Virus record (IMG/VR): IMGVR_UViG_2721755711_000001
Direction: 5' to 3' (one strand)
Source: a virus
Lineage: Duplodnaviria; Heunggongvirae; Uroviricota; Caudoviricetes
DNA length: 46,733 nucleotides
The position numbers and the translations under genes are program-made. Each line of letters starts with the position of its first letter. Positions within the stretch are counted from its first letter, which is position 1. The notes under the pieces are model-generated. The model saw nothing but the letters and a program-made list of their open reading frames with translations. It made no database searches and had not been told where the DNA came from. Below are positions 3,116 through 24,869 of the stretch, piece after piece.

Positions 3116-5149
3116 ATGCGTATAAAAATTTTATCCATAATGGTCAGTTTATCAGTTCTGTCCTTTGTGCCTTACTTATTAGCGAAAGAGTTATCTTACG
3201 GTCAGCAAAAAATTGTGTTGTCTGATTCTATTACTCCTGGTAATGATTTTTTCCAATATGTGAACCATGACTGGATCAATAAAGTAAAGATTCCAGCAGG
3301 TATGTCTCAAATTGATTCTATCGTGGATTTAGAGTTAGACACTGAAAAGAAAATTAAAACCATTATTGAAGAACTGGAGGCGGTACCCAAAAGTAGCCTG
3401 AGTAATAATCAGAAAAATATTCTGAATTTATATTTCAGTTATATGGATGAGGCCAGTATTGAAAAGGCCGGTTTAATGCCTGTGAAAACAGATTTAATAA
3501 AAATCATGCAAGCAAAAGATCATGAAGATATTAGCCGATTAATGACATTGCCCGGTTATACATCACTAATTGCTTATTGGGTTGGTTTGGATTCAAAATC
3601 ACCGGATACTTATGTTCTGTATCTTGGCCAGGGTGAACTCGGATTACCTGATCGTAATTACTATCTTGATAATACACCACAAATGAGAGAAACCCGTAAA
3701 AATTATATCAGTTATATTGAAACTATTCTGAAATTAACAGGTGAAAAAGACGTTAAAAAAAGATCACAACAGATCTTTGACTTTGAAAAATCTATTGCTG
3801 AAGTCCAGTGGAGCCTTGAAAATTGCCGGGATACCATCAGAAACTACCACCCAATGACTCTCGCGGAAATGAAAAGTTTTACCTCTGGCTTTTCGTGGAA
3901 TAGCTTTATTCAGTACTGGGGATTAACCGACCAACAATTGGCTAAAATAGTGATTGAAAATGATACTGCTGTAGAACAAACGGTACAAATATTCGTTAAA
4001 ACATCTGTTTCTGTTTTAAAAGATTTTCTGATATTTCATTACATCAATAGCCATGCTGTTTATTTGAATAATGCACTATCTGATGCTTATTTTGATTTTT
4101 ACCAGAAAAAACTGAATGGTGTTGAGAAGCAACGTACTCGTCAGGAGCGAGCACTTCAGATTGTCAATTCACTACAGGGTGAACCACTTGGGCAGATCTA
4201 TGTAGAAAAATATTTCTATCCACAATCAAAAGAGAAAATACAGAAATTAATTAGTTATATGTTCGCAGCTTTTAATACGCGTTTGAAAGATAATGACTGG
4301 ATGGATGAAGCTACACGCAAGGAAGCACAGAAGAAACTGGCACAGTTTACAGTTAAAGTCGGTTATCCAGATAAGTGGAATGATTTCAGTACGATCAATT
4401 TGAAACCTGACACATTGATGGATAACTTTAAGCAAGTGGAAGCGTGGACTTGTCGCAACCTCATGAGCAAAATAGGTCAGTCTGTTCGTAAATGGGAATG
4501 GAACATAACGCCACAGACCGTGAATGCCTACTTCGATCCTGTGTTAAATGAAATTGTGTTTCCTGCTGCGATATTACAGGCACCATTCTTCGAGCCTAAT
4601 GTTGATCCTGCATATAACTATGGTGCGATTGGCTCAGTCATTGGTCATGAAATGGGGCATGGTTTTGATGACCAGGGGAGCCTGTATGATGGAACTGGCC
4701 GGTTACGCAACTGGTGGAGTAACAATGCTAAAGAGCATTTTAAAGAAAAAACCGCCAAATTGGTGGAGCAATATAACAACTTTGAGGTCGATGGTCAGAA
4801 CTTAAATGGCGAGTTAACACTCGGTGAAAATATTGGTGATTTAGGTGGTTTAAATATCGCACTTAGTGCCTATAAACGATTCGCCAAAGATAATTACCCG
4901 AATGGTGAGCCCCCCGTTATTGATGGCATGACAGGCTTACAGCGTTTCTTTATTTCATGGGCCAGAACGTGGCAAGAGTTATCAAATAAGGAATCCGTGC
5001 GTAATCAGATCCTGACTGATGAACACTCGCCGAATCAGTTCCGCGCTAATGGGGTTGTTCGAAATATTGATGACTGGTATACAGCTTTTGGCGTGAGTAA
5101 GGGTAATGCTCTTTATCTTGAGCCAGAGAATCGGGTGATGATTTGGTGA
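3116..5149 (+). CDS. Secreted M13-family zinc metallopeptidase (neprilysin/PepO-like)
   Basis: 677 aa; N-terminal signal peptide; HEMGHGFD (HExxH) zinc motif and GENIGDLGG motif typical of M13; gene visibly AT-rich. Confidence 0.85.
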   Translation: MRIKILSIMVSLSVLSFVPYLLAKELSYGQQKIVLSDSITPGNDFFQYVNHDWINKVKIPAGMSQIDSIVDLELDTEKKIKTIIEELEAVPKSSLSNNQKNILNLYFSYMDEASIEKAGLMPVKTDLIKIMQAKDHEDISRLMTLPGYTSLIAYWVGLDSKSPDTYVLYLGQGELGLPDRNYYLDNTPQMRETRKNYISYIETILKLTGEKDVKKRSQQIFDFEKSIAEVQWSLENCRDTIRNYHPMTLAEMKSFTSGFSWNSFIQYWGLTDQQLAKIVIENDTAVEQTVQIFVKTSVSVLKDFLIFHYINSHAVYLNNALSDAYFDFYQKKLNGVEKQRTRQERALQIVNSLQGEPLGQIYVEKYFYPQSKEKIQKLISYMFAAFNTRLKDNDWMDEATRKEAQKKLAQFTVKVGYPDKWNDFSTINLKPDTLMDNFKQVEAWTCRNLMSKIGQSVRKWEWNITPQTVNAYFDPVLNEIVFPAAILQAPFFEPNVDPAYNYGAIGSVIGHEMGHGFDDQGSLYDGTGRLRNWWSNNAKEHFKEKTAKLVEQYNNFEVDGQNLNGELTLGENIGDLGGLNIALSAYKRFAKDNYPNGEPPVIDGMTGLQRFFISWARTWQELSNKESVRNQILTDEHSPNQFRANGVVRNIDDWYTAFGVSKGNALYLEPENRVMIW

Positions 5150-5374
5150 CTCGTCTGGTGACCGCTTTGACGGTCACTTTTAAGAAAAGGAATTTACAGG
5201 AGGGGCCCCTGTTAAGTTGTCAAGCATGTTTATGCCCGCTATGAGCTGAGGAATCTCCAGAAAACGAGACAGGCATAGCGCTATATGAACTACTGAATTT
5301 GTGCCAACAATTCAATGAGATCACTGCTATGTCTGTTCAAAAAGAGCCTGTATTCCGCTCTATTTGTTCACGGT

Positions 5375-5486
5375 AATACGCACGAACTGCCCGTCGACGG
5401 ACTTCGGGGGAAAAACGTGTATTTTTAGTCATCCTGTTTACCTCTTTTTCAGGGAGTTTAGTCTCCAGGATTTTCGGGGCGGTTCA
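5375..5486 (-). mobile_element. IS3-family (IS629/IS1203-like) left-end remnant: terminal repeat plus first ~20 codons of orfA, then truncated
   Basis: Minus strand reads TGAACCGCCCC...AGGTAAACAGGATGACTAAAAATACACGTTTTTCCCCCGAAGTCCGTC; encodes MTKNTRFSPEVR then diverges. Confidence 0.6.
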
Positions 5487-6241
5487 CTGGGCACCAGACC
5501 AACATAAGCCGCGAACTCTCGCCCTGATTTAAACACTGATGCTTTCCCCATGATGGCCAACGCTGCCGTTGCAATAAGTGGACCAACGCCAGGAATATCC
5601 AGCAACCGTCTACAGGTTTCATTCTGTCTCGCCACACTGGTAAGCTGTTTTTCTATATCATCTATCAGTGAGTCCAGTTCATTCAGCCTGTTGTACTGAT
5701 TTTCCAGCACTGTAATGAGATACAGTGGCAGTCTCTCTTTCATCCGCTCCAGTGCTTCAGGGAACTCCCGTTCCATCGCTGCCCGACCTTTGTGGATGGT
5801 TTCACCAAACTCCAGTAACGTCCCGTGCAGGGCATTAATTTGCGCGGTCCGGAACTTCACCAGTTGTCTGCGGGAACGGTGCAGAACCAGTATTGACTGT
5901 TGTTCTTCTGTTTTGACGGCGATTTCTTTACCTGGCTGCTGTACCGCCATCCAGATAGCTCGCGCATCCATCACGTCATTCTTATTGCCCATGACGAATG
6001 CTTTAACGAAGCGAGCCTGCAACAACCGGACTTTGTGTCCCTGCTTTGTTAATTCACGCGCCCAGTGCTGGGAGCCTCCACAAGCTTCCATGCCAATCAG
6101 GCAGGGTTCGCGGTTACTGAAATACGCCAGAAAATCCTGACGACGAACCTGCTTATCCACCACTTCCCCTGTGTGCTCATTGATGAAGTGAACCTGAATG
6201 ACATGTTTTGCGATATCAACGCCAACCGGTGTATATTTCAT
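5487..6241 (-). pseudogene. IS110-family transposase, 3'-truncated by the IS3-family insertion
   Basis: N-terminal DEDD-type domain and central IPGVGPLIATAALAIMG...AYVGLVP motif; reading frame runs into the IS3-family terminal repeat directly after GLVP, so the C-terminal catalytic region is missing. Confidence 0.75.
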
Positions 6242-6410
6242 TTGTGGAGTCTCCAGTCTGAGGGAGCTTTATGCATCCCGTATTGGGCACTATGATGCCG
6301 GAAATCTGCGAGGCTCCACACTTTTCCTGCCAACCCCGGCTTCATACTCAAATAGTTGGGATGCGTTCATTACATTCTCCCTTAGCCCGGCGGCCTGCCG
6401 GGCATATAAG

Positions 6411-7238
6411 TTATTTAATCTGGATAAATGGTGTATTGGCACCACTGGTCATGTATTGCGGCAGTGTACCGTTCCACTTGTTGATGGCTTCCAGCTCCAT
6501 GACGCCTGGGTTCTGGCGCAGAGCTTCGCCGCGTAAACGAATGGCATCGGCTTCTGCCTGGGCTTTTGTTCGAATGGCATCAGCCTGTCCGGCAGCTTCC
6601 GCACGTAGCATGTTGGCCTCCGCTTCACGTTGCTTGACTTCCTGTTCGCGCTGCAGGGTTTTCTGGTTTGCCGTGACTTTGGCGTTAATGCTGTCGATAA
6701 CGGTTGGAGGGTATTCCGGTTTACCTACATAAGAGAGGCTCATTACCTGAATGCCGATGGGTGTCATCTCTTCCTGAATGTCTTTAAGTGCGGCATCCAG
6801 TAGTTCAGACTTGCCGCCGTCGATAAATTTGTCAGTGGTCATTTTGCTGGCCAGCCGATTGAGTGCGTCGGCAATTTTCTGGCGCAGGTCAGTGTCGGTA
6901 ATGTCATCCACGCCTTTGCGGTAGGTCTGAAACACCGTGGTAACTTTGGATGGATCAACTTTGTAGGCCACACCGATGTGATAGCCGATGGTTGTACCGT
7001 CACTCATCTGGAAACTGAACGGTTCATCGTAGGTCTTCATTTGTTTGAAGGTGGGGAAGATATAAACTTCAGTATTCCAGCCAGTCCAGTAGCGACCAAC
7101 ACCGACCACCTCACCGACGCCTTTGTCGTCGCCCAGTTTATTTACCTTGATGCCAACATTACCTGGTTCAACGCGATCGCAACCGACAAGGCCAATTGTC
7201 GGCAGAACAATGGCTAAAGCAAAAATAATTTTTTTCAT
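6411..7238 (-). CDS. SPFH/band-7 (prohibitin/stomatin-like) lipoprotein with coiled-coil C-terminus
   Basis: Lipobox LVGC after signal peptide; SPFH-like core; Ala/Glu/Gln-rich C-terminal coiled coil. Confidence 0.75.
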   Translation of the reverse strand: MKKIIFALAIVLPTIGLVGCDRVEPGNVGIKVNKLGDDKGVGEVVGVGRYWTGWNTEVYIFPTFKQMKTYDEPFSFQMSDGTTIGYHIGVAYKVDPSKVTTVFQTYRKGVDDITDTDLRQKIADALNRLASKMTTDKFIDGGKSELLDAALKDIQEEMTPIGIQVMSLSYVGKPEYPPTVIDSINAKVTANQKTLQREQEVKQREAEANMLRAEAAGQADAIRTKAQAEADAIRLRGEALRQNPGVMELEAINKWNGTLPQYMTSGANTPFIQIK

Positions 7239-7423
7239 CTTTTATCCTTAGTGAAAGAAAGACCCTTGTAAATGGCATAAATGCAGGGCGGGGTCAGAAA
7301 CGCCAGTGCAAAGCCGGAAATGACTGCTACCGTATCCTTCATGGATATAAGGAACGGGACGAGTAGTCCGTAAATGCATGCGATAATTGCCAGTAAAATT
7401 ACTATTCTGAAATACAATCTCAT
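7235..7423 (-). CDS. Small two-helix membrane protein, overlaps SPFH gene start by 4 bp
   Basis: 62 aa, two hydrophobic segments; stop overlaps downstream start (ATGA). Confidence 0.45.
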   Translation of the reverse strand: MRLYFRIVILLAIIACIYGLLVPFLISMKDTVAVISGFALAFLTPPCIYAIYKGLSFTKDKR

Positions 7424-7600
7424 TGGTTTGTTGCATCCCGATATTTTTAACTGACTGACAGCGCAATAAAGAGAATAATGATTTCTGTTAGTGTCAGTAC
7501 TGTGGCAAGGATTAAAAACAGTTTTACTCTGCTTAATTCACGGTTGCTTTTCATATAAACGGTTAGTAAAAAAACGGAAGAATTATATTCTTCTTAATAT

Positions 7601-8182
7601 TTAATGTGTCACTGGCGCTTCTGGCATACCATGAGTATTCAGATCGTGAATCATTTCATCCAGAAGGAGTTCAAGCCCTTCGCGCCCCATAGCAGAGACA
7701 ATGAAACCATTATCAGGATCTGCGATGAGCATTTTTTGATAGAGAAACAGAACTCGCCCCATGCCTTCAGCTTCACCATATTTTTCAATAAATCCCCATT
7801 CGACATGGTTTTGCAGGGCAATGCGAAGTGGTCCTGGGTATATACTCATGCAACCATGCTTCCCCTTATAAATAACTGCGCGATCTGTAGTTCCGTTATC
7901 GTTAGGGATATCAATGGTACCGTTCTTGTTTTCCTCTTCACTGATAAACGTTGCCACATACAGCCAGCGCCATTGAGCAACCTTCATATCGACTGAAAAT
8001 CTTCCCAGGAATCCGGCATCATCGGCTTCAGCAATACATTGCATGATTCTTAAGCCGTGCCAGTATGGATTGTCGTATTCACCATCATTAAGCCGCTGTA
8101 CGGCCTCAACATAATCAATGGTTGTATTGCCAATTTTTATGCCATGTGGCGTAACTTCTGGTCGGAACTCTGAATGATTCAT
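7601..8182 (-). CDS. Hypothetical protein, unknown function
   Basis: ORF 7601..8239; preferred start is the ATG of MNHSEF at 8182, preceded by GGAG; no recognisable motif. Confidence 0.5.
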   Translation of the reverse strand: MNHSEFRPEVTPHGIKIGNTTIDYVEAVQRLNDGEYDNPYWHGLRIMQCIAEADDAGFLGRFSVDMKVAQWRWLYVATFISEEENKNGTIDIPNDNGTTDRAVIYKGKHGCMSIYPGPLRIALQNHVEWGFIEKYGEAEGMGRVLFLYQKMLIADPDNGFIVSAMGREGLELLLDEMIHDLNTHGMPEAPVTH

Positions 8183-8566
8183 AATGTTTGCTCCTTTGCT
8201 GGTGGAATAATCGTGTAGCCAGCTCTTTTTGCCATCCACAGAAATGTATCCATGCAGCCAACGAATTCATTATCCAACAGATGTTTTGAGTAAATTACTT
8301 CACCATTTTCAATGGTTAGCAACACTCTTACTTTTTATGTGTTATGTTCTGTTGTTTTTCTTTCATTTATTTATCTCCCATATGCTTTGCGCAAATACAG
8401 GTTGGCTATATGAAGATAAGAATCTCCATGTTGTGCAATGAGGCAGGCAGTTTTATACGATGCCTTATTTTTCAGGAAAGTCATAACATAATCTCCTGCG
8501 AATAAAGGTTGCAACAATCCCCGGCGATAAAACCGTAATATATTATTCGAAGATGACTTGTTTTAT

Positions 8567-8932
8567 TTAACTGGATAGTTCTTTTTCAGCTGCTGCTTCA
8601 GCATAGCAACGTGCAAATTCAAGAACTTCATCACCTGTTCTTTTTATTGCGTCATTGTCTGACATTTGTAATACGACAACTGCGCATAATAAATCATGGA
8701 TATTGTTTGCAAAGGAATCCGGTGCCAGACAGAGACCCTCATAATTATTTCGTTGTAAGTTAGCTTCCGTCATTGGCTCCGAAGTGCCGGTGAGCCGGTT
8801 TTTGACAATCACGCGGTCTCGAATCACTATATCGGCAACATCTATTGCTTTTATAACCCCCGGGAGAAATTCCTGGTTTGTATAATCAAACTCATCAACA
8901 CAGAGAACGGTTATGTTTTCGAACTTTTTCAT
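8567..8932 (-). CDS. Hypothetical protein, second gene of a coupled two-gene operon downstream of cI
   Basis: ATG at 8932 overlaps the stop of the upstream gene (ATGA); track start 8938 is an alternative TTG; no recognised domain. Confidence 0.5.
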   Translation of the reverse strand: MKKFENITVLCVDEFDYTNQEFLPGVIKAIDVADIVIRDRVIVKNRLTGTSEPMTEANLQRNNYEGLCLAPDSFANNIHDLLCAVVVLQMSDNDAIKRTGDEVLEFARCYAEAAAEKELSS

Positions 8933-9390
8933 GCGCAAGTATCTCCAGCTGTTGGTTTACCGGTTAACAGCCACATCGGATCGCACCCAAGAACATTTGC
9001 CAGCGGGATAAGCATACTGATGGTTGGTTCATACTTTCCGCTTTCCCACTGGATGATGATTTCTTCATCGAGATCGAGCAGCCTGGCGAGTTCGGCGGTT
9101 GTTAAGCCGCAGGATTCGCGTTGGGTGCGAAGGTTAACCAGCCAGCTTTTAGGGAAGGATTGTTTTTGTTGTGCAGGAGAAGCCGCAGATAGAGCATATT
9201 CATGGATAAATTCCATTACCTCAATGCCCAGTTCCTTTGAGCGAGCACAATCCAGAAGATGGAATGTGCGTACAGCACTTAGCAAATTTGCAATATTTAA
9301 TGCAAAGGAATCAAGTTCTAAGCCCTTAAGCGTAACACAGCCGCAGTTGATAAAATTAGTTGTTTCTGGAGTTGCGTTTAGTGTCTTCAT
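8929..9390 (-). CDS. Two-domain protein: unknown N-terminal domain plus C-terminal XRE/Cro-type helix-turn-helix
   Basis: C-terminal LTTAELARLLDLDEEIIIQWESGKYEPTISMLIPLANVLGCDPMWLLTG is a classic XRE-type HTH. Confidence 0.6.
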   Translation of the reverse strand: MKTLNATPETTNFINCGCVTLKGLELDSFALNIANLLSAVRTFHLLDCARSKELGIEVMEFIHEYALSAASPAQQKQSFPKSWLVNLRTQRESCGLTTAELARLLDLDEEIIIQWESGKYEPTISMLIPLANVLGCDPMWLLTGKPTAGDTCA

Positions 9391-9437
9391 ATATCCACCA
9401 ACAATTTTAAATTGAACTAAATCAAGTTATAATTGAT

Positions 9438-9472
9438 GGTGCGATATTATGCTTTGAGAAATAGGCTGTCAA
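9438..9472 (-). promoter_or_regulatory. Sigma70-type promoter for the 9390->8567 operon
   Basis: Minus strand reads TTGACA - 17 bp - TAATAT, upstream of the 9390 start and downstream of the cI terminator. Confidence 0.45.
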
Positions 9473-9502
9473 GAAAAAATTGACATCGTGTGTTTTAGGC
9501 AG

Positions 9503-9528
9503 AAAAAAACGGGCAAAGCCCGTTAAAA
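9503..9528 (-). terminator. Intrinsic terminator after cI
   Basis: Minus strand AACGGGCTTTGCCCGTTTTTTT just 3' of the cI stop codon. Confidence 0.55.
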
Positions 9529-9535
9529 TCAAAGA

Positions 9536-10225
9536 CTAACCAAATCTGTTTATATTGAATGGTACTGATGAGATCACTTTAGACTGGATATAAAGCAGAG
9601 CTAACCCCTCTTTTTCGATGCTCCATGGTTGATAATTGGGGTTATCAGATAACACCATGATTTTGCTTCCAATTTTTTGAAGTCTTTTCACGTAGCATTC
9701 TCCATCAAAACAAAATGCATAAATGCCATCGCCATCAAAATAAGTTACTGTCTTATCAAGAAAAAGAAGGTCGCCAGGTGAGATTGTGGGAGCCATACTG
9801 TCTCCTCTGGCGTTGCCTATTTCTATATTTTTAAATGCTCGGTTTCCAACAAGACGACGGGCATATTCAGGATCAAGTTCTATTGAGCGTACTACATCTA
9901 TAAAGTCTCCGCGGACATGGGTCCCATTACCGCAACTAAATTCAACGTCAAGTACATTAAACACGACGCTATCTGTTCTTGCCTGATGTTTCTCTTGCGA
10001 AGAGAAGGTTGGTGAGGTGTCTTCACCTAAGAACCAGGATTGTGGATAACCGCTAATCTCTGATAACTGCGCAAGCTTATCGCTCCGTGGAAATGTTTTT
10101 CCTGTGGTCCAGTACTGCACTGATTGCGCACTCACCCCCAGCTTACGGGCCAGCTGAGCCTGAGTCCATCCTTTTGCTTTCAGCATTGCGGCTATTCTAT
10201 TTTCTGTGTTTTTGACGTTCTTCAT
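9536..10225 (-). CDS. cI: Phage CI-type repressor (N-terminal HTH, C-terminal S24 LexA-like peptidase)
   Basis: N-terminal HTH (GWTQAQLARKLGVSAQSVQYW); C-terminal GDSMAPTISPGDLLFLDK S24 motif; divergent from cro-like gene. Confidence 0.85.
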   Translation of the reverse strand: MKNVKNTENRIAAMLKAKGWTQAQLARKLGVSAQSVQYWTTGKTFPRSDKLAQLSEISGYPQSWFLGEDTSPTFSSQEKHQARTDSVVFNVLDVEFSCGNGTHVRGDFIDVVRSIELDPEYARRLVGNRAFKNIEIGNARGDSMAPTISPGDLLFLDKTVTYFDGDGIYAFCFDGECYVKRLQKIGSKIMVLSDNPNYQPWSIEKEGLALLYIQSKVISSVPFNINRFG

Positions 10226-10358
10226 GACCAGGTCCCGTGGGTTTCTTTACAAGGGTAAATCTTTACTTGATTTTAGTGTATTCGATCCTTTTGCAACTTG
10301 CATGTTAATTTAAACTTGATGTATTCTTGATTCATTAAGTTTATCTTGGTGATTTGTT
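10226..10358. promoter_or_regulatory. cI-cro divergent intergenic region (operator/promoter region)
   Basis: AT-rich, with repeated CTTTAC/ACTTGA motifs and inverted repeat TAAACTT...AAGTTTA between the divergent genes. Confidence 0.45.
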
Positions 10359-10631
10359 ATGAAAGGAAATGATTACGACGAACTTCGTGCATTAATTGCG
10401 CAAAATGCCATAGCGCGAAATCTTGGTGTGACACCGCAAGCGGTGAATCAGTGGTTTTCAAAAAGCACAATTCCTGCTCGTTTCGTTTTACGGGTATGTG
10501 AGGTGGTTGCATGGAAGGTTACGCCTCATGGCTTAAGGCCAGATCTTTACCCTCACCCTGAAGATGGAATTCCTGATTCGTTACGCAAAACATCAAATCC
10601 AAGCTTAGCGCACACGGGGGAGGGGAGGTAA
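10359..10631 (+). CDS. Cro-like DNA-binding protein (YdaS/DUF1019-type HTH)
   Basis: LGVTPQAVNQW HTH core; divergent from cI. Confidence 0.7.
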   Translation: MKGNDYDELRALIAQNAIARNLGVTPQAVNQWFSKSTIPARFVLRVCEVVAWKVTPHGLRPDLYPHPEDGIPDSLRKTSNPSLAHTGEGR

Positions 10632-10752
10632 GGAAGTATGAACGAAGAACGAATCGAATGCATTCTTGAGGCCATATCAGCCCTTACCGACGAAGAGATT
10701 CAGGAGGCAAGGACTGTTGCTGAAAAAACAGCCTTAGCTTTGGGTTTTTCGG

Positions 10753-10980
10753 TTAATCCTGGTTGATGGAGTTATCCAGAACGGCAGCGATGTATTCACA
10801 CATATCCTGTCCTCGCTCCCTCTGCTGTTGCGGCTGACTTTTCAGGTTTTTAATTAACTCCATTCCGGATGCTGCGAGCTTTATTCGCTCTTGGATGGGA
10901 AGGGACGACAGCAATAAACCAAGTAATGCCTCAAGGCCGTCTAGCTTGGTTTCAACGCTGAATTTAGTTGTATCAGTCAT
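10753..10980 (-). CDS. Hypothetical protein
   Basis: ORF only. Confidence 0.3.
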   Translation of the reverse strand: MTDTTKFSVETKLDGLEALLGLLLSSLPIQERIKLAASGMELIKNLKSQPQQQRERGQDMCEYIAAVLDNSINQD

Positions 10981-11068
10981 AGGTAATTTCCTTACTGGTT
11001 GTGTGAGAACTCCAGTATACCACCGAGCCTGAAGTGGTTAAAAGACAGGCAAATTGAAGAGGCTAACC

Positions 11069-11389
11069 ATGACTCCAGAAGAATTTATCTGCAAACACAT
11101 AACGGAAAAGCTGGTGGCGGAGGGCTTCCCTGAAATTGTTGCCAGGGGGGGGCATGCCGGGGACTGGATTACTACCGCCGTAGCTCGCAGGCCAGCCGCA
11201 AAGGAGCGATGTTTAATGATTGCTTGTTTCGTGCGCGGCAATGGGCACTTGGTCAGACAAATGTTACTGAGCGAAAGGAAAAGAAAAAGCCGGGCCGGAT
11301 TAAGGTGGGCCAGCCCGGCCTGTCCTGACTTACCTTTGGAATCAACCTTCAAGGAGCTGTTCCATGATAAACGCCCGATTAATCACTGA
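11069..11389 (+). CDS. Hypothetical protein (weak)
   Basis: ATG at 11069 preceded by GAAGAGG; sequence includes a GC-rich hairpin, so coding status is uncertain. Confidence 0.25.
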   Translation: MTPEEFICKHITEKLVAEGFPEIVARGGHAGDWITTAVARRPAAKERCLMIACFVRGNGHLVRQMLLSERKRKSRAGLRWASPACPDLPLESTFKELFHDKRPINH

Positions 11390-11464
11390 TCCTGACCGCC
11401 AACCGGAGGGCATTAATCACCAGACTGGAAAAGGCCTCAATCATCTGACTAAAGGACATTGATC

Positions 11465-11776
11465 ATGCTTAACATTAGCAGCACTCAAAAATTAGTCAAC
11501 CCTTCAGATCCTGTTGGACAAATTCCGGTCGAACAGTGGTACAGAAGAACGTACGTGGTTTCAGAGTACGCCCGCACTTATACCGAGACAATTATCGGAA
11601 AGGCCAAATGCCCCTGTTCCGCAGCTGTGAATGGTGCGATGGCAATACGTAACGCCAATCCTTCGGTTTTATCCATCCGTTTTATAAGTATTGAGCAGCT
11701 TTCTCCTGAAGAAGGAGAGGCCAGCGAGCGCGCCCTTGACGCCTGGTTTGAGAAACATCCTGAGGAGATTGAATGA
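11465..11776 (+). CDS. Hypothetical phage protein
   Basis: ATG at 11465 with AAAGGA RBS; stop overlaps next gene start. Confidence 0.4.
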   Translation: MLNISSTQKLVNPSDPVGQIPVEQWYRRTYVVSEYARTYTETIIGKAKCPCSAAVNGAMAIRNANPSVLSIRFISIEQLSPEEGEASERALDAWFEKHPEEIE

Positions 11777-12697: not shown

Positions 12698-13006
12698 TTA
12701 CACGAAGCGGATCTGGAGTTTTTTTCCTGTTGCGCGGGCAAATTTTTTCAGTGTGGAAAATGATGGTCCACTGACACCTGACGCCAGATTACTTTCCATT
12801 CTGCTGATGACAGTTGCTTTGGTTCCCATACGCTCAGCGATCTCAGCCTGGGTTAAACCAGCTTCTTTACGTGCTGCCAGCATTTCATCAAGCAACGCAA
12901 ATTCGTCGGCGATGGCGTCGTATTCTGCTTTAAAAGCTGGATCCTCCATCCATTTATCAGCCATTTCATCATGTGTAATGGTTGGCGGATTACGTTTACC
13001 AGTCAT
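12698..13006 (-). CDS. higA: HigA-type antitoxin (XRE HTH)
   Basis: AGLTQAEIAERMGTKATVISRMES HTH; overlaps upstream toxin gene; toxin-first order typical of higBA. Confidence 0.8.
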   Translation of the reverse strand: MTGKRNPPTITHDEMADKWMEDPAFKAEYDAIADEFALLDEMLAARKEAGLTQAEIAERMGTKATVISRMESNLASGVSGPSFSTLKKFARATGKKLQIRFV

Positions 13007-13325
13007 GCTTTACCTCCTTCATTCTGGTTTCAGCTTTTTGGCGTTCGGCTGGTGGGGTTTTCTGGGTCTTCTTGATGAAACTATGCAGCATGATGATGCG
13101 TTTTCCTGCCAGGGTGCAGTAAAAGACGCGTGCGATGCCATCACTACCTTTAATCCGAAGCTCGAAAAGCCCGTTACCGAAAGCACTGGTATGAGGTTCT
13201 CCGAGATTGCTGCCGTATATCTTCATGCGTTCAACAAGATGCTGGTATCGGGCACGCATACTCAATGGAAGCTGGTCGACCTCCAGCCTGACCTCTTCAC
13301 TGTAGTATTCGATAGTGTAGTTCAT
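12996..13325 (-). CDS. higB: HigB/RelE-family toxin (Gp49-like killer protein)
   Basis: 109 aa; RelE/ParE-superfamily-like sequence; immediately upstream of and overlapping the XRE antitoxin. Confidence 0.75.
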   Translation of the reverse strand: MNYTIEYYSEEVRLEVDQLPLSMRARYQHLVERMKIYGSNLGEPHTSAFGNGLFELRIKGSDGIARVFYCTLAGKRIIMLHSFIKKTQKTPPAERQKAETRMKEVKHDW

Positions 13326-18979: not shown

Positions 18980-20086
18980 TTAGAACTGGTATACCATACC
19001 TACAGCAACGATATCGTCAGTGTTTACACCAAGAGCTTTAGTAAAGTCATTTTTGTCAAGCAGGTTGATTTTGTAATCAACGAATGTAGACATATTTTTG
19101 TTGAAATAATAAGTTGCGCCAACATCAACATATTTGACTAAATCTTGGTCACCAAAAATGCCAAGATCTTTACCTTTTGATTGCAGATAAGCAACAGACG
19201 GACGCAGACCGAAATCGAACTGATATTGTGCAACAGCTTCGAAGTTTTGTGCTTTATTAGCCACAAAGTAATCTGCGAATTTAGTCATATTCTGGGTTTC
19301 TGAATAGGTTGTTGCCAGATAAACGTTGTTTGCGTCGTATTTCAGACCTGCAGCCCAGACTTCTGCATTTTCGCCGGAAGCAAATACTCCTGGGAGAAGT
19401 TTACCCAATTTGACTTGAGTGTCGGTACGATCAGATTTCGCATACGTTGCACCAATGCCGAAACCTTCGTATTCATAGGTCGCAGAGAAACCAAAACCAT
19501 CGCCATTGCCTTTGGTGTAGTTATCTAAGCTACTACGATCATGATTATTCTTACCCTGGTACTGTGCAGCAAAATTCAGACCATCAACCAGACCAAAGAA
19601 GTCGTTGTTACGATAAGTTGCAACACCAGTGGTGCGACCAGTCATGAATACATCTGTTTGGGTCCAGGTATCTCCACCGAATTCTGGCAGAACGTCAGTC
19701 CATGCACCGATATCGTATGCTACACCGTAGTTACGACCGTAATCGACGGAGCCGTAGTCACCGAATTTAAGCCCTGCAAATGCAAGACGGGTTTTATCTT
19801 TGGCTGCTCCCTGTTCTTCAGTACGGTTTCCTTTGAATTCATATTCCCACTGACCGAAACCAGTCAGTTGATCGTTGATCTGAGTTTCGCCTTTGAAACC
19901 CAGACGAGCATAAGTTGTGTCGCCATCATTTGCATCGTTAGAGGAGAAGTAGTGCTTAGCATTAACTTTTCCGTACAGATCCAACTTGTTGCTGTCTTTA
20001 TTATAAATCTCTGCTGCCTGAGCAGACATCGCCATCAGTACTGATGCAGCCACAGCAGAAATTGCCACCGTTAATTTTTTCATCAC
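18980..20086 (-). CDS. General porin, OmpC/OmpF/NmpC family (prophage-borne)
   Basis: Signal peptide ending AQA; conserved porin motifs ([23 protein letters not shown]) and C-terminal MVYQF. Confidence 0.85.
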
Positions 20087-20593
20087 GAACCCTTTTTTTT
20101 GAACTATTTTTAAAAAATGATGTCACTGCGCGATAAATATTCATCTAATCAATGTGGTTATTTCAAGAGGCAAGTTTAATTTAGTGATTGATAATATGAT
20201 CAAGATCTCATTTATGCGCGTTGGTGTAATTTGTCGATATTTTTGTGTAATGCGGAATTTAATTAATGAAATACATTATTTACTCATTTTTCATTGAAAA
20301 ATAACAATGATGTATTTGATGTAATATGTGTTATTCGTATGTTTTGTTTTGTTATATGGCATTAACATTTGAGTGGCGTATTTGTGGTTTACGTACGTAA
20401 AAATTCAATTATGATGTTAAGAGTGGTTGCTTCGACTCCTTCCTTAAACCCGCCGTTTGGCGGGTTTTTTGTGCCCGAAAAACGACACGGGACGTTAAAT
20501 GCGCTGGTGGTTGCGAATACCGGTCTTTCAGCTTGCTGGCTTTTTCGACAAGAGTTATTGGTATGTCACGTTAACCGGGAAAGGGAAAAAGGC

Positions 20594-20791
20594 ATGCTAA
20601 AACAGCAGGATATGACCGAAACTGCCAGAGTGGTATTTAATGAATTAAGCGTCACCGAACCGGCGACCGTCGGGGAAATTGCGCAGAATACTTACCTTTC
20701 ACGCGAACGCTGCCAGTTAATACTGACCCAGCTTGTTATGGCGGGTCTGGCAGATTATCAGTTCGGTTGTTACAGACGCCTTCCGCAGTGA
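20594..20791 (+). CDS. Small hypothetical protein upstream of methyltransferase
   Basis: ATG at 20594 with purine-rich upstream; 65 aa. Confidence 0.35.
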   Translation: MLKQQDMTETARVVFNELSVTEPATVGEIAQNTYLSRERCQLILTQLVMAGLADYQFGCYRRLPQ

Positions 20792-20941
20792 AGGCTTTTT
20801 AATTTGTGGTAATGGGCGGCTGGTGGGTGTTAGCGGCACCTGCCAGCCATCTGCTCATGCGTTGGGATCACAAGCAAACCTCAGGCCCATCTGCTTTGCG
20901 CAAAAGCGGTATGAGCCTATCAGAGAAGTGCTTACTGATCT

Positions 20942-21988
20942 ATGGCCAATACTGTAAAAATATCCAGTTGTGAGTTAATCAACGCTGATTGCCTGGAATT
21001 TATCCGGACCTTACCGGAAAACTCCGTCGATCTGATAGTCACAGACCCGCCATACTTTAAAGTGAAGCCTGAGGGCTGGGATAACCAGTGGAAGGGCGAT
21101 GATGATTACCTGCAATGGCTGGACCAGTGTCTGGCGCAGTTCTGGCGGGTACTGAAGCCTGCCGGAAGTCTTTACCTGTTCTGTGGTCATCGACTGGCAT
21201 CTGACACCGAACTCATGATGCGTGAACGTTTTAATGTGTTGAACCACATTATCTGGGCGAAGCCGTCCGGACGCTGGAACGGGTGCAATAAGGAAAGTTT
21301 ACGGGCATATTTCCCGGCAACAGAGCGCATTCTGTTTGCTGAACATTATCAGGGGTCATACCAGCTCAAAAGTGACGGTTATGCAGCAAAAGGGCGCGAG
21401 CTTAAGCAGCACGTAATGGCCCCGCTGATTGCTTACTTTCGTGATGCGCGTGAATCACTGGGGATAACGTCAAAACAGATAGCTGAAGCCACCGGAAAGA
21501 AAAACATGGCTTCGCACTGGTTTGGTACCAGTCAGTGGCAGTTACCGAATGAGGCCGATTACAGTAAACTGCAGGCGCTGTTTGCACGTGTGGCGGCAGA
21601 AAAACACCAGCGCGGTGAACTGGAGCAGCCACACCACCAGCTGGTCAGCACATACAGCGAACTGAACCGGCAATATGCCAGCCTGCTGGAGGAATACAAA
21701 TCACTGCGGCGTTATTTTTCCGTATCGGCTGTTGTTCCTTATACGGATGTCTGGACGCACAAGCCCGTGCAGTATTATCCGGGTAAACATCCCTGTGAAA
21801 AACCGGCGGATATGTTGCGTCAGATAATTACTGCCAGCAGCCGTCCTGGCGATTTGGTCGCAGATTTTTTTATGGGGTCGGGGTCGACAATAAAAGCGGC
21901 ACTGTCGCTGGGACGCAGGGCGATTGGCGTGGAACTGGAAGAGGAACGTTTTAATCAGACGGTCAGAGAAATAACGAAAGATTTTTAA
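20942..21988 (+). CDS. DNA methyltransferase, amino-MTase (N6-adenine or N4-cytosine), no adjacent restriction enzyme gene
   Basis: DPPY catalytic motif near N-terminus and FFMGSGST AdoMet-binding motif near C-terminus. Confidence 0.8.
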   Translation: MANTVKISSCELINADCLEFIRTLPENSVDLIVTDPPYFKVKPEGWDNQWKGDDDYLQWLDQCLAQFWRVLKPAGSLYLFCGHRLASDTELMMRERFNVLNHIIWAKPSGRWNGCNKESLRAYFPATERILFAEHYQGSYQLKSDGYAAKGRELKQHVMAPLIAYFRDARESLGITSKQIAEATGKKNMASHWFGTSQWQLPNEADYSKLQALFARVAAEKHQRGELEQPHHQLVSTYSELNRQYASLLEEYKSLRRYFSVSAVVPYTDVWTHKPVQYYPGKHPCEKPADMLRQIITASSRPGDLVADFFMGSGSTIKAALSLGRRAIGVELEEERFNQTVREITKDF

Positions 21989-22206
21989 TTCAGTGATGAT
22001 ATACGTTGTATATTTCTGATACAGATGTATACACATATTTAAAACTGAACACCAAATATATTTTTGATGTCTGAAAAACTGTCGTTAGTATTCTGACTGG
22101 TCCGGAAGGTGGTTGTCTTTATGTTCACAGGGGTGTTGCTTGCCACCGGAAAGACCAGTGCTGGCTTTCCTGGTAATTCGTGTGATTCCGGAAGCCAGCA
22201 CAGTAT

Positions 22207-22281
22207 GCGGGTATCGTATAATGGCTATTACCTCAGCTTTCCAGGCTGATGATGCGGGTTCGATTCCCGCCACCCGCTCTC
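22207..22281 (+). tRNA. tRNA-Gly (anticodon UCC), left-arm copy, slightly degenerate
   Basis: Cloverleaf readable by eye: acceptor GCGGGTA, T-arm GCGGG-TTCGATT-CCCGC, anticodon loop TTTCCAG; A7-C66 mismatch; 3' end reads CTC, not CCA. Confidence 0.55.
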
Positions 22282-23166
22282 CAGTAAAACTGATGAGTCA
22301 TAGCTTTATTATCAGCACTGGCGAATTTTCGTGAAGAATCTGGTTGCGGACACTTTATTTTCTTCATTCTGTAATGCCTGGCCGGTTACAGTTTCAGTGC
22401 TGTGTTTTTTACATTGTTAATGGTATGCGTTATCAGAATGAGTCGTCGCCTGTACCGGGGCCTACGATTCGTCAGAATTGCGGTTGCAGGTTGACGACTC
22501 ATTCTGATACCGATAATTCGATACAAGTAATCCTGCTTAACTCTTACATGATGAATGCGTTAGCCCGTCTCCTGACGGGCATTTTTTTATCCATACACAG
22601 GGTTCGTACCGGCGGACCTTTTTCACATCTGTGTCCTGTACACACCACATCAGAAAACACCAGATAACACCACACAAAAGGTATCTGCGGGTGCCTTTGA
22701 CGGGGTGTTTTTTTTAAAAAAACACCCCATCAAAGGCACCCGCAGATGCCTTTTGTGTGGTGTTATCTGGTGTTTTCTGGTGTGGTGTGTGCAGGACACA
22801 GATGTGAAAAAGGTCCGCTGGTACGAACCCTGTATATGGATAAAAAAATGCCCGTCAGGAGACGGGCCAGAGCATTCATCGTGTAGTAATAGAATTATAT
22901 TTATATATGGTCGCCACCAGAATGAGTCGTCAACCTACAAAGCCACCCTGGCTTACTGTACGTGTGCGCATGGAACAGGTAACGACTCATTCTGCTAACG
23001 ACGTTTACAAGTAATAATCACATACCATTATGTAATACAAAAAAAGCAGCACTGAAACTGTAACCGTTCAGATATTACAGCATGAAGAAAAACAATAGTA
23101 CCTACAAAGCTGTTCTCCGCGAAAATTCGCCAGTGCTGATAAAGCTATGCCTCGTTTGTTTTACAA

Positions 23167-23241
<75 letters not shown>

Positions 23242-23244
23242 ATA

Positions 23245-23320
<76 letters not shown>

Positions 23321-23935
23321 GTTGGTTCCTCGGGAGTGAGATGAGATGCCCCGATACATAATGTATCATTCCCTCGGAACCACAAAAATAATACTAATAA
23401 ATAATCAGGATGCAATATTTACCAACTATGTAATTGTAAATTTGTTTGAATAAAAAATTACTAAACACGCCATATCGCCCCTCTAAAAAAGGGGGTCGTA
23501 ATAATATAAGTGATACTAAGCATCACATTACTAAATACATTGTATTAAGCTGGCGACCCGATGCGTAATCCCTTGATATTAAAAACTCCAAACAAAATCA
23601 GAATGCCATCTGAATACACAAAAAGCTGGCTTCACACCACCCTGTATGTGAACGCAGAACTCATCACCCCACGCGCTTTCGCAGCCAGTACACAACCTGT
23701 GTCAAACGCTGGCAGATGAACAATGAAACTGCCAGCACGGTCACCTATCTTAGTTCGCGTCTCGTATTCTGCTTGATAATAAGTTTCCCGTTCTTCTCTT
23801 ATTGTGCATTTTTCAGTTTATCTGTCAGTAGCATTTTGACATACCAATAATTCCTGTCGAGAAAATCAGTGAGCTAAAAAACCGTATTCACAGCCTCGGG
23901 CACGTTTAACGTACCGCACCACTTTTCGGGCGTAA

Positions 23936-23964
23936 AAAAACCCACATTAAGCGGGTTTTCAGGT
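23936..23964 (-). terminator. Intrinsic terminator just downstream of the Q-like gene (tR'-like position)
   Basis: Minus strand AACCCGC-TTAAT-GTGGGTT followed by a T-run. Confidence 0.4.
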
Positions 23965-24039
23965 GTCCATGTCTGCTATACGCCTCGTGATACAGCTTTA
24001 CGAAGCGTACCAAAATTGAAGCAGTTTGTACGTAAAAAA

Positions 24040-24495
24040 TCAAGCCATTTTTTGAGCAAATGATTCTCGCATGGGAATGTATAGCGCATACTCAGCAACA
24101 GCCAACCAATTAGCAATTCGCTTTTCGCATGTGCTAAAACACCACTCTGGGTGTGCATCATTTAGCAATTCAGCCATTTTTCGCTTAGTCATCCCCCGCC
24201 CCTCATAGCGTTGCCGGAGAATACAAATCAATCCCGGATGATCCGCCATAACTTCGCCAATAACTCTGTCGATTATTAATGCCTCTGAATCGGCACAATG
24301 TGCCAGCCAGCTCTTTTGCTTGCCGTTAATCATATCCCGCAAAAAAGCCTCAAGTTCAGGCTTGTCCAGACCTGCTTTTTTCATCCTCCGGAGCACCTCG
24401 TTAATTGCCGTTTTTGTCAGCTTTTTAGAGGTCAACATCTGGTTAAACATATTCCCTGTCTTACCGCCACCAATATACGACCAGCGCCCCCACAT
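24040..24495 (-). CDS. Putative late antiterminator Q-like protein, called by position
   Basis: Lies between the ybcO-like gene and the tR'-like terminator/tRNAs; start at ATG 24495 chosen to avoid overlap with ybcO-like gene; family assignment uncertain. Confidence 0.4.
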   Translation of the reverse strand: MWGRWSYIGGGKTGNMFNQMLTSKKLTKTAINEVLRRMKKAGLDKPELEAFLRDMINGKQKSWLAHCADSEALIIDRVIGEVMADHPGLICILRQRYEGRGMTKRKMAELLNDAHPEWCFSTCEKRIANWLAVAEYALYIPMRESFAQKMA

Positions 24496-24578
24496 ACGCA
24501 GTTTTCCCTGAAACCAGACACTTTCCAGCGTAGTGAGACGAAGGTGTTCTCCGCTTTTTCCTGTATTCGTTGGGTAAA

Positions 24579-24869
24579 TCACAAATATCCCTCCTTTCTC
24601 CAGATTTCTTGTGTGCGAAAAACACCTTCTGCATGCATCAGGCGCAATTCTTCTTTGGTGTAATCGATGGTTTTTACTCTCCCGTCGATTAAATCGTGGC
24701 ACGAGCTACAGGCAATCGCCGCCTGCATATCGTGTGGTTTTGTCGCTGTTCCACACGTCCCCGCCAGCCTGTAATGTGCCAGCACAGACGTTCCGGGATT
24801 GTGATTGCAGTAGCCAGGAATTCTGACCTGGCACATCTGGCCCCGCGCCGCTTTACGCAAATTCACCAT
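24579..24869 (-). CDS. YbcO-like DUF1364 phage protein (Cys-rich, putative nuclease)
   Basis: LRKAARGQMCQVRIPGYCN...SVLAH...GTCGT...KP...AIACSSCHD resembles DLP12 YbcO as recalled. Confidence 0.65.
   Translation of the reverse strand: MVNLRKAARGQMCQVRIPGYCNHNPGTSVLAHYRLAGTCGTATKPHDMQAAIACSSCHDLIDGRVKTIDYTKEELRLMHAEGVFRTQEIWRKEGYL

What the first reader, a model, noticed from the sequence alone, without database searches (positions are those of the whole stretch)
8567..9472. Independently promoted two-gene operon in the rexAB-equivalent position downstream of cI
Immediately downstream of the cI terminator lies a near-consensus sigma70 promoter (TTGACA-17-TAATAT on the minus strand). It drives a 153-aa protein with an unknown N-terminal domain and a C-terminal XRE HTH, translationally coupled (ATGA overlap) to a 121-aa protein with no recognisable motif. 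In lambda this slot holds the rexAB exclusion system, and in lambdoid prophages generally it is a hotspot for lysogen-expressed exclusion or toxin-antitoxin modules. The regulator-plus-small-effector layout fits that role, but neither protein is recognisably a known TA or defence family from sequence alone.
Basis: inference. Interest (0 to 1): 0.65.

Follow-up and report, generated by a model that had tools for sequence, protein, structure and literature searches.

The report
Early-left operon with paired hairpin proteins
The promoter and two genes just after the phage repressor gene are real, but the promoter carries the repressor's own binding sites, so this is most likely the switched-off-in-lysogens early operon of a phiP27-like prophage, encoding an uncharacterised DNA-binding regulator and a partner protein that shares its helical-hairpin domain, not a lysogen-expressed defence module.

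Summary

The interpretation does not hold. The promoter is flanked by two operator-like sites of the type found twice in the cI-cro region. In six further immunity types examined, the equivalent promoter carries that phage's own OR-type repeats. It is therefore the PL/OL equivalent (lambda's N slot, not rexAB) and should be repressed in lysogens.

The genes are homologues of phiP27 L10 and L08, common in E. coli and Stx prophages and uncharacterised.

New findings:
- Residues 27-70 of the 153-aa protein and 72-115 of the 121-aa protein are paralogous helical hairpins.
- The HTH is nearly invariant, while the hairpin swaps with immunity type.
- Hairpin-only mini-proteins and fusions of the 121-aa protein's N-domain to the same HTH exist elsewhere.

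Best guess, not tested: an early regulator whose activity is set by hairpin-hairpin association, as in SinR/SinI. It is a new variant of a known kind, of moderate interest.

The parts
9536..10225 (-). cI-like prophage repressor (229 aa, N-terminal HTH plus S24 autopeptidase)
   Evidence: Pfam HTH_3 E 4.9e-9 and Peptidase_S24 E 3.9e-17; phrog_4 transcriptional repressor E 4.8e-54.
10256..10319 (.). OR region with two operator-like sites (10256-10270 and 10305-10319), between cI and the cro-like gene (10359-10631, + strand)
   Evidence: TCAAG-N5-ATT-N-A matches; both sites are kept in the same-immunity loci; the cro-like gene matches phrog_35 at E 8e-20.
9500..9524 (-). Intrinsic-terminator-like hairpin plus T-run ending the cI transcript
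   Evidence: 7-bp stem with 5 G-C pairs, 3-nt loop, tail TTTTTCTGCC. Analogous terminators occur in L079 and L088, but none is evident in phiP27 or the Stx2 phages.
9469..9485 (.). OL2-like operator (GTCAA-N7-TTGAC on the minus strand) overlapping the -35 hexamer
   Evidence: Pattern match at 9469-9483; it reads ATCAA-N7-TTGAC in relatives L001 and L003.
9444..9472 (-). Sigma-70 promoter TTGACA-17-TAATAT, interpreted as the PL equivalent
   Evidence: 10 of 12 matches. It is kept in the four same-immunity relatives read, with TTGACA in three and ATTGACA in the Stx2 phages (L004, L005).
9421..9437 (.). OL1-like operator, a perfect palindrome ATCAA-N7-TTGAT covering about +1 to +17
   Evidence: It is the only zero-mismatch match in the window. 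It shares AAATCAAGT with the OR sites.
9397..9440 (-). 5' UTR stem-loop pairing the 5' end of the transcript with part of the Shine-Dalgarno region
   Evidence: RNA fold of 9385-9440: -11.6 kcal/mol, z = -2.2. The complementary arms CACCATCAAT/ATTGxTGGTG are kept in L074 and L004.
8929..9390 (-). ORF153, the phiP27 L10 homologue. Residues 1-24 are disordered, 26-69 form a helical hairpin (nt 9184-9315), and 82-143 form an XRE HTH (nt 8962-9147)
   Evidence: AF2: helices 26-45 and 49-69 at pLDDT about 73; HTH at pLDDT 85-89; the HTH matches P22 c2, 434 and the SinR N-domain.
8567..8932 (-). ORF121, the phiP27 L08 homologue. Residues 1-47 form a small beta/alpha domain (nt 8792-8932), 48-69 are disordered, and 71-120 form a helical hairpin (nt 8573-8722) paralogous to that of ORF153
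   Evidence: 48% identity, E 4e-8; phrog_5451 and phrog_4587; AF2; dN/dS 0.2-0.6.
8371..8484 (-). Conserved 37-aa ORF (MTFLKNKASYKTACLIAQHGDSYLHIANLYLRKAYGR), the next cistron of the same operon
   Evidence: The alignment of 11 loci shows a conserved reading frame and a Shine-Dalgarno site. A homologue occurs in Enterobacter locus L088.

Best explanation
Window 8567-9472 holds the immunity-controlled early-left promoter (PL/OL equivalent) of a phiP27-like lambdoid prophage and its first two cistrons.

In a lysogen, the cI-like repressor is predicted to occupy the two operator-like sites over the -35 hexamer and the start site, keeping the operon off. On induction or infection it is among the first things made.

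ORF153 is an early XRE-type DNA-binding regulator. Its HTH is nearly invariant across phages of different immunity, so it should recognise a conserved DNA target, which is not identified. Its N-terminal two-helix hairpin is exchanged together with the immunity region.

ORF121 carries a paralogous hairpin behind a small beta/alpha domain.

The most likely mechanism is that the hairpins associate, as the SinR multimerisation domain does with SinI. ORF121, or the hairpin-only mini-proteins that replace it in other phages, would then set the oligomeric state and DNA-binding activity of ORF153, or would bring the beta/alpha domain to it.

Shown here: the anatomy, paralogy, synteny, purifying selection, and the agreement of operator type with immunity type.
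Inferred: repression by cI, early expression, hairpin-hairpin binding, and a regulatory role.

Sub-confidences: PL/OL identity about 0.8; ORF153 as a sequence-specific early regulator about 0.6; hairpin-mediated ORF153-ORF121 association about 0.35.
For: PL/OL identity:
- The motif TCAAG-N5-ATT-N-A occurs 6 times in the window against 0.52 expected. Two sites are in OR and two bracket this promoter, with similar spacing (49 and 47 bp).
- Both pairs are kept in nearly all the cI type i and i'' loci (the Stx2-type i' loci match the strict pattern only at OR). The motif is absent from the 10 loci of other immunity types.
- Other immunity types carry their own OR-type repeats at the equivalent promoter: GTATCA (phiP27 type), AATAGG-TAAA-CCTATT (L079), ATAGAAC/ATAGCA (L080), TATACTTGA/TATCAA (L083), AATAACTTATTGCA (L088) and ATGTAGG/CCTACAT (L087).
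- No other operator cluster exists in the window.
- The gene is always the first or second one after cI.

Regulator:
- HTH_3 E 1.5e-11.
- Foldseek top hits are the P22 c2, 434 repressor/Cro and SinR DNA-binding domains.
- HTH dN/dS is 0.05-0.36.
- 26 invariant columns, all in the HTH, across 30 homologues with different N-domains.

Hairpin association:
- Paralogy at E 4e-8, with reciprocal PHROG cross-hits.
- AF2 predicts two-helix hairpins in both proteins.
- 80 of 83 loci have a family-1 hairpin ORF just downstream of the HTH gene.
- The stop/start overlap ATGA occurs in 31 of 83 loci, and the gap is 1-20 nt in 23 more.
- Stand-alone 60-80-aa hairpin proteins exist.
- The ORF121 N-domain is fused directly to the same tandem HTH in Salmonella proteins P0163 and P0171 and in P0165.
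- SinR/SinI precedent: the heterodimer surface is made of residues conserved between the two proteins (PMC3163267 abstract).
Against: - No expression data and no binding data exist. The operator motif was derived after the fact from the same sites it counts.
- Terminators leak, and phiP27 and the Stx2 relatives have no evident terminator after cI. Low read-through expression in lysogens is therefore not excluded.
- The hairpin type of ORF121 does not covary with that of ORF153. The same L08 is found with L10 proteins carrying family-1 types a, c and d, the unrelated family-2 type b, and an unclassified type g.
- Fused and split forms co-occur in one operon (L087), so they are not simple equivalents.
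- There is no sequence match to the Pfam SinI family.
- Hairpin pLDDT is only about 73-77, and no complex was modelled.
- The DNA target of the HTH was not found.
Confidence: 0.5

Rival explanations
1. Lysis-lysogeny accessory (CII/CIII-like or anti-repressor-like). ORF153 is an early factor whose immunity-linked hairpin contacts a cognate immunity component (cI, Cro or their mRNAs), biasing commitment. ORF121 modulates it.
For: The hairpin type is perfectly linked to the cI type in 85 loci and 7 repressor types, while the rest of the protein assorts freely. It is the first gene after PL. Some depositors label it 'CII-like' or 'putative CII repressor'.
Against: The linkage is fully explained by the lack of any homology for recombination between OL/PL and the conserved HTH. 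The N-domain shows no similarity to cI or Cro. The 'CII' labels are unsupported annotations. An invariant HTH argues for a target outside the variable immunity region.
Confidence: 0.2
2. Anti-defence or host-takeover cassette with a fused autoregulator (Acr-Aca-like logic). The hairpins are the effectors that bind host or rival-phage proteins, and the conserved HTH only throttles the operon.
For: The hairpins are highly diverse, frequently exchanged and often stand-alone small proteins. They sit next to, or are fused to, a conserved HTH at the very start of an early operon with a near-consensus promoter.
Against: The HTH is invariant while the promoter region differs completely between immunity types, so an Aca-like site in the promoter is unlikely. 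There is no match to any known anti-defence protein and no target is known.
Confidence: 0.15
3. One reading: a lysogen-expressed exclusion or toxin-antitoxin module in the rexAB slot, with ORF121 as toxin or effector and ORF153 as HTH antitoxin or regulator.
For: A two-gene, translationally coupled layout with an HTH protein first. The region next to cI is a known hotspot for such cargo (general knowledge). Neither protein is characterised.
Against: The promoter carries OR-type operators and a terminator separates it from cI. No PADLOC family matches beyond generic HTH. ORF121 has no toxin-like fold or family. The second cistron is often only a 63-80-aa hairpin protein, and the ORF121 N-domain also occurs fused to the HTH itself. 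None of this fits a toxin.
Confidence: 0.08

Closest known systems
Lambda OL/PL early-left control region and the N gene slot
   Same: A strong sigma-70 promoter lies immediately beyond the end of the cI transcription unit. It is overlapped by operators of the same type as OR and drives the leftward early operon toward xis and int.
   Different: The first gene is an XRE HTH protein, not an arginine-rich antiterminator. Two operator-like sites were recognised, not three. There are no rex genes between cI and the promoter. Repression was not tested.
Bacillus subtilis SinR/SinI (and SlrR/SlrA) repressor-antagonist pairs
   Same: A phage-repressor-like XRE HTH is joined to a two-helix multimerisation module. 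A small protein encoded next to it carries a homologous two-helix module. Several such proteins can occur in one locus (PMC3163267).
   Different: The domain order is reversed, with the hairpin N-terminal. There is no sequence membership in Pfam SinI. ORF121 has an extra N-terminal domain. The partner's hairpin type does not covary with that of the regulator. The interaction is unproven.
Phage phiP27 genes L10 and L08 (PHROG 4836 and 5451/4587)
   Same: They are direct homologues in the same position after the repressor gene: DNA identity is 85% over L08 and the HTH part of L10, with PHROG E-values of 5.5e-78 and 6e-51.
   Different: phiP27 L10 has an unrelated (family-2) N-terminal hairpin. 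An unannotated 80-aa ORF lies between L10 and L08. None of these genes has been characterised.
Lambda rexAB
   Same: It lies next to cI on the promoter-distal side and is a two-gene unit.
   Different: It is not co-transcribed with cI, there is no RexA or RexB homology, the promoter carries operators, and lysogenic expression is not expected.

Membership tests
Lambda-type OL/PL early-left promoter | Promoter overlapped by operators of the same sequence type as OR of the same phage | tested here: met
   Two TCAAG-N5-ATT-N-A sites lie at the promoter and two in OR; there are 6 in the window against 0.52 expected. The motif is immunity-type specific. Six other immunity types show the same OR-type repeats at the equivalent promoter.
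Lambda-type OL/PL early-left promoter | Repressed by cI in the lysogen and derepressed on induction | not testable with these tools
   This needs a reporter assay, a footprint or RNA-seq.
Lambda RexAB | Co-transcription with cI from PRM | tested here: not met
   A terminator-like hairpin at 9524-9508 lies between cI and the operon, which has its own promoter.
Lambda RexAB | Sequence homology to RexA or RexB | tested here: not met
   PADLOC gave only generic HTH matches for ORF153 (RmrA, HTH_VI, capH, PDC-M64C) and nothing for ORF121. Pfam gave nothing.
Type II toxin-antitoxin module | A recognisable toxin family or fold | tested here: not met
   ORF121 has no Pfam or PADLOC hit at E<=1. The best Foldseek PDB E-value is 1.6, on a low-confidence model.
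Type II toxin-antitoxin module | Obligate pairing of the same two partners | tested here: not met
   The second cistron is variously a 121-aa protein, a 63-80-aa hairpin-only protein or another small helical protein. The ORF121 N-domain also occurs fused to the HTH.
Type II toxin-antitoxin module | Toxicity of one partner, neutralised by the other | not testable with these tools
   This needs expression experiments.
SinR/SinI | XRE-type HTH DNA-binding domain in the regulator | tested here: met
   HTH_3 E 1.5e-11. The SinR N-domain is among the Foldseek hits, with rmsd 1.0-1.1 A.
SinR/SinI | Two-helix multimerisation module shared by homology between the regulator and a small neighbouring protein | tested here: met
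   BLASTP gives 48% identity over 44 aa, E 4e-8. AF2 predicts helical hairpins in both proteins.
SinR/SinI | Sequence membership in Pfam SinI, with the hairpin C-terminal to the HTH | tested here: not met
   There is no SinI hit at E<=1, and the hairpin is N-terminal to the HTH.
SinR/SinI | Physical heterodimer that abolishes DNA binding | not testable with these tools
Acr-Aca type anti-defence operon | The HTH protein binds its own operon's promoter | tested here: inconclusive
   The HTH is invariant, but no motif is conserved in promoters of different immunity types. Binding itself was not tested.
phiP27 L10/L08 (PHROG 4836 and 5451) | Full-length profile match and the same position after the repressor gene | tested here: met
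   E 5.5e-78 over residues 1-152 and E 6.1e-51 over residues 1-120; synteny with phiP27, PhiR49_2 and Stx phages.

The most novel reading that the evidence does not exclude
The hairpins form a combinatorial specificity code on a shared, invariant DNA-binding domain. Each immunity type has a private hairpin on its early regulator. Phages additionally carry hairpin-only or hairpin-fused 'microproteins' of other types. These would act in trans on the regulators of co-resident or superinfecting relatives, as dominant-negative interference or as cross-talk between prophages. This would explain why the partner's hairpin type is usually not the phage's own.
Probability: 0.1. Interest if true: 0.8.

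Novelty: new variant of a known kind. Interest (0 to 1): 0.45.

Why it matters
phiP27-like prophages, including many Stx1- and Stx2-converting phages, lack a lambda N homologue in this slot. What their first early-left gene does is unknown.

The module is widespread. DNA matches occur in 363 of 5426 complete E. coli genomes, and one 230-aa relative was seen on at least 1000 contigs.

If ORF153 is an early regulator tuned by hairpin partners, it is an unstudied control point for induction and for Shiga toxin phage development. It would also be a second, independent example of SinR/SinI-type repressor-antagonist logic, this time inside a phage switch.

The analysis also corrects a positional assumption: 'the gene after cI' is not always lysogen-expressed cargo.

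Tried and rejected
- A matrix of shared 7-9-mers between OL and OR regions of different immunity types was too noisy, because of AT-rich runs, to serve as a test. I used explicit motifs and their type specificity instead.
- The strict palindrome ATCAA-N7-TTGAT with 1 mismatch allowed is not enriched in the window (4 found, 2.97 expected).
- Pfam and PADLOC gave nothing for ORF121 and only generic HTH hits for ORF153.
- Foldseek against PDB found only the HTH for ORF153 and nothing for ORF121.
- An AbrB/MazE-like reading of the ORF121 N-domain was considered from sequence pattern only and dropped for lack of any hit.
- The N-domain of ORF153 shows no similarity to cI or Cro.
- No inverted repeats that could be the HTH target were found in 7230-8600.
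- Rfam found nothing in 7000-11500.
- Literature searches found no functional study of these genes.
- An SOS box near the promoter was looked for by eye and not seen.
- Covariation between the two hairpins was tested and not found.

Full report
**1. What is there**

All features are on the minus strand.

| Feature | Coordinates | Source |
|---|---|---|
| cI-like repressor, 229 aa (HTH_3 plus Peptidase_S24) | 9536-10225 | |
| Terminator-like hairpin AACGGGC-TTT-GCCCGTT plus T-run | 9524-9508 | |
| Promoter TTGACA-17-TAATAT, 10 of 12 matches | 9472-9444 | |
| 153-aa ORF with ATG preceded by GGTGGA | 8929-9390 | |
| 121-aa ORF, start overlapping the previous stop (ATGA) | 8567-8932 | |

- ORF153 has an HTH_3 domain at residues 87-141 (E 1.5e-11).
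- ORF121 has no Pfam or PADLOC match.
- Both are genuine genes. dN/dS is 0.05-0.36 for the HTH segment and 0.2-0.6 for ORF121.

**2. Identity**

The pair is the L10/L08 module of Stx2e phage phiP27.
- It also occurs in PhiR49_2, in many Stx1a-, Stx2a- and Stx2d-converting phages, and in prophages at the yecE/yecN site of E. coli.
- ORF153 matches phrog_4836 (E 5.5e-78) and ORF121 matches phrog_5451 (E 6e-51).
- Depositors' names are 'hypothetical', 'helix-turn-helix domain-containing', 'transcriptional regulator' and, without evidence, 'CII-like' or 'DicA'.
- I found no functional study.

**3. The promoter is the PL/OL equivalent, not a lysogenic promoter**

In this window:
- A perfect palindrome ATCAA-N7-TTGAT lies at 9421-9437, about +1 to +17. 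It is the only perfect copy in the window.
- GTCAA-N7-TTGAC lies at 9469-9485 and overlaps the -35 hexamer.
- Both share the core AAATCAAGT / TCAAG-N5-ATT-N-A with two sites in the cI-cro intergenic region (10256-10270 and 10305-10319).
- That pattern occurs 6 times in the window against 0.52 expected. Four of the six lie in these two control regions, with similar spacing (47 and 49 bp).
- The pattern was derived from these same sites, so the count alone is circular.

Two independent points remove the circularity:
- Both pairs of sites are kept in nearly all the fetched loci with the i and i'' variants of this repressor type. The Stx2-type i' loci keep the OR pair and related sites at the promoter that miss the strict pattern. 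The pattern is absent from the ten loci with other repressor types, even though those share the downstream genes.
- In every other immunity type examined, the promoter in front of the L10 homologue carries repeats of that phage's own OR type:

| Immunity type | Shared OR/OL repeat |
|---|---|
| phiP27 type | CCAAAGTATCA / GTATCA |
| L079 | AATAGG-TAAA-CCTATT, lying between TTGACA and TATTAT |
| L080 | ATAGAAC / ATAGCA |
| L083 | TATACTTGA / TATCAA..TTGA |
| Enterobacter locus L088 | AATAACTTATTGCA |
| L087 | ATGTAGG / CCTACAT |

No other operator cluster exists in the window.

In lambda (established knowledge), rexAB lies between cI and OL/PL and is co-transcribed with cI. Here nothing lies between the cI terminator and the operator-bearing promoter. 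ORF153 therefore occupies the N slot of the leftward early operon, which runs on toward xis and int in intact relatives. The operon is predicted to be silent in a lysogen.

Caveats:
- Binding and expression are untested.
- phiP27 and the Stx2 relatives have no obvious terminator after cI, so read-through from PRM could give some lysogenic expression there.

**4. Anatomy of the two proteins**

AlphaFold2 predictions:
- ORF153: residues 1-24 disordered; helical hairpin (helices 26-45 and 49-69, pLDDT about 73); canonical XRE HTH at 82-143 (pLDDT 85-89). Foldseek finds only the HTH: P22 c2, 434 repressor and Cro, the SinR N-domain, CapH and C-proteins.
- ORF121: small beta/alpha domain at 1-47 (low confidence); disordered linker; helical hairpin (helices 71-89 and 94-120). 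It has no structural match.

The two hairpins are paralogues, with 21 of 44 residues identical (E 4e-8) and reciprocal PHROG cross-hits.

**5. Comparative picture**

I fetched 80 IMG/VR loci, five annotated phage or E. coli records fetched earlier, and further contexts.

(a) The HTH is almost invariant, with 26 invariant columns in 30 diverse homologues.

(b) The N-terminal module falls into at least seven types.
- Types a, c and d are homologous to each other (hhalign probability 95.5%, E 1.6e-8) and form family 1.
- Types b, e and f form an unrelated family 2.
- Type g is unclassified.

(c) N-module type is perfectly linked to repressor type in 85 loci. The C-terminal part and the downstream gene assort freely.
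- The immunity-region boundary therefore lies inside the gene, at the hairpin/HTH junction.
- Lack of homology for recombination between OL/PL and the HTH is a sufficient explanation for the linkage.

(d) The commonest form is 230 aa with two tandem HTHs.
- The 153-aa form here looks like a deletion between the repeats: HTH1 runs up to 'GCDP' and is joined to the 'MWLLTG...' end of HTH2.

(e) A family-1 hairpin ORF lies just downstream in 80 of 83 loci.
- It takes the form of a 121-aa L08, a 63-68-aa hairpin-only protein (Stx phages), or a 63-74-aa d-like protein.
- The stop/start overlap ATGA occurs in 31 of 83 loci, and the gap is 1-20 nt in 23 more.

(f) A profile search of 1.8 billion representative proteins found only 35 clusters.
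- The named ones come from E. coli, Salmonella, Enterobacter, Klebsiella and Citrobacter.

(g) Domain fusions:
- The ORF121 N-domain is fused directly to the same tandem HTH in P0163, P0165 and P0171.
- A family-1 hairpin is fused to two HTHs in P0178.
- One operon (L087) encodes hairpin2-HTH, beta-HTH-HTH, beta-hairpin and a stand-alone hairpin in a row.

**6. Mechanism**

The modules behave as interchangeable protein-interaction units around one DNA-binding domain. The closest precedent is SinR/SinI/SlrR/SlrA. There, a phage-repressor-like HTH carries a two-helix module, and small paralogous two-helix proteins bind it and abolish DNA binding (PMC3163267).

I therefore propose two things:
- ORF153 is an early regulator with a conserved DNA target.
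- ORF121 associates with it through the paralogous hairpins.

The main evidence against is that hairpin types do not covary. The same L08 accompanies L10 proteins with family-1, family-2 and unclassified hairpins. No complex could be modelled, and the DNA target is unknown. Confidence in this step is about 0.35.

Rivals, not mutually exclusive with a regulatory role:
- a lysis-lysogeny accessory contacting a cognate immunity component;
- an Acr-Aca-like early anti-defence cassette;

**7. Verdict**

The rexAB/TA interpretation is largely unsupported. What is really there is the PL-type early-left control region and its first two cistrons, an uncharacterised but widespread Enterobacteriaceae prophage module with SinR/SinI-like architecture. 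It is a new variant of a known kind, of moderate interest.

Noticed in passing
window 8371-8484 (-): A conserved 37-aa ORF (MTFLKNKASYKTACLIAQHGDSYLHIANLYLRKAYGR) with its own Shine-Dalgarno site lies between ORF121 and the next gene. The frame is kept across divergent loci, including an Enterobacter prophage. It is often unannotated.
   Followed up: partly
window 8179-8366 (-): The phiP27 L07 homologue (62 aa in relatives, MKEKQQNITHKKVRVLLTIENG...) is interrupted here by a 1-nt deletion in an A-run, giving MKEKQQNITHKK*. Only a 48-aa GTG-started remainder stays open. This may be a pseudogene or a sequencing error.
   Followed up: partly
window 9397-9440 (-): The 5' UTR of ORF153 can form a stem-loop (-11.6 kcal/mol, z -2.2) that pairs the transcript's 5' end with part of the ribosome-binding site. 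The complementary arms are kept in two diverged relatives.
   Followed up: partly
window 9406-9433 (+): A promoter-like TTTAAA-16-TATAAT on the opposite strand points into the 3' end of cI and overlaps the OL1-like site. The -10 is kept only in the closest relatives, so it is probably a chance AT-rich match.
   Followed up: partly
window 5438-6400: Homology to intact relatives stops near 6365. The DUF5406, DUF4222, xis and int genes are replaced by an IS110-family transposase fragment (5438-6241), an M13 peptidase gene (3116-5149) and a UvrD-like fragment (2174-2959). The prophage has probably lost its integration module.
   Followed up: partly
window 12698-13325 (-): A Gp49/HigB-like toxin gene (12996-13325, Pfam Gp49 E 2e-25) overlaps an HTH antitoxin-like gene (12698-13006). 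Both are on the strand opposite to the early-right operon. This is a better toxin-antitoxin candidate than the finding itself.
   Followed up: partly
window 6411-7423 (-): An SPFH/Band-7 lipoprotein gene (275 aa) overlaps a 62-aa membrane-protein gene (phrog_1130). The pair is conserved at the distal end of the same left operon in all relatives and is annotated 'serine protease' in the Stx phage records.
   Followed up: no
window 10753-10980 (-): A 75-aa ORF lies on the minus strand just after the cro-like gene, in the position of phiP27 L13. It is helical-looking and has no Pfam family and no significant relation to the hairpin families (hhalign E >= 0.016).
   Followed up: partly
window 18980-25480: A porin gene (18980-20086, -) and a DNA methylase gene (20942-21988, +) lie here. 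A Q-like DUF1133 gene (24040-24702) and a DUF1367 gene (24869-25480) are on the minus strand, opposite to what a single collinear lambdoid late region would show. This suggests an inversion or a composite of two prophage remnants.
   Followed up: no
L002 (phiP27) 4201-4443 in the orientation; record about 5336-5578: An unannotated 80-aa ORF (MKNCDAYHICLIGELLD...) is ATGA-coupled to phiP27 L10. The record instead annotates L09 on the opposite strand. The same ORF is present in 9 of the fetched loci.
   Followed up: partly
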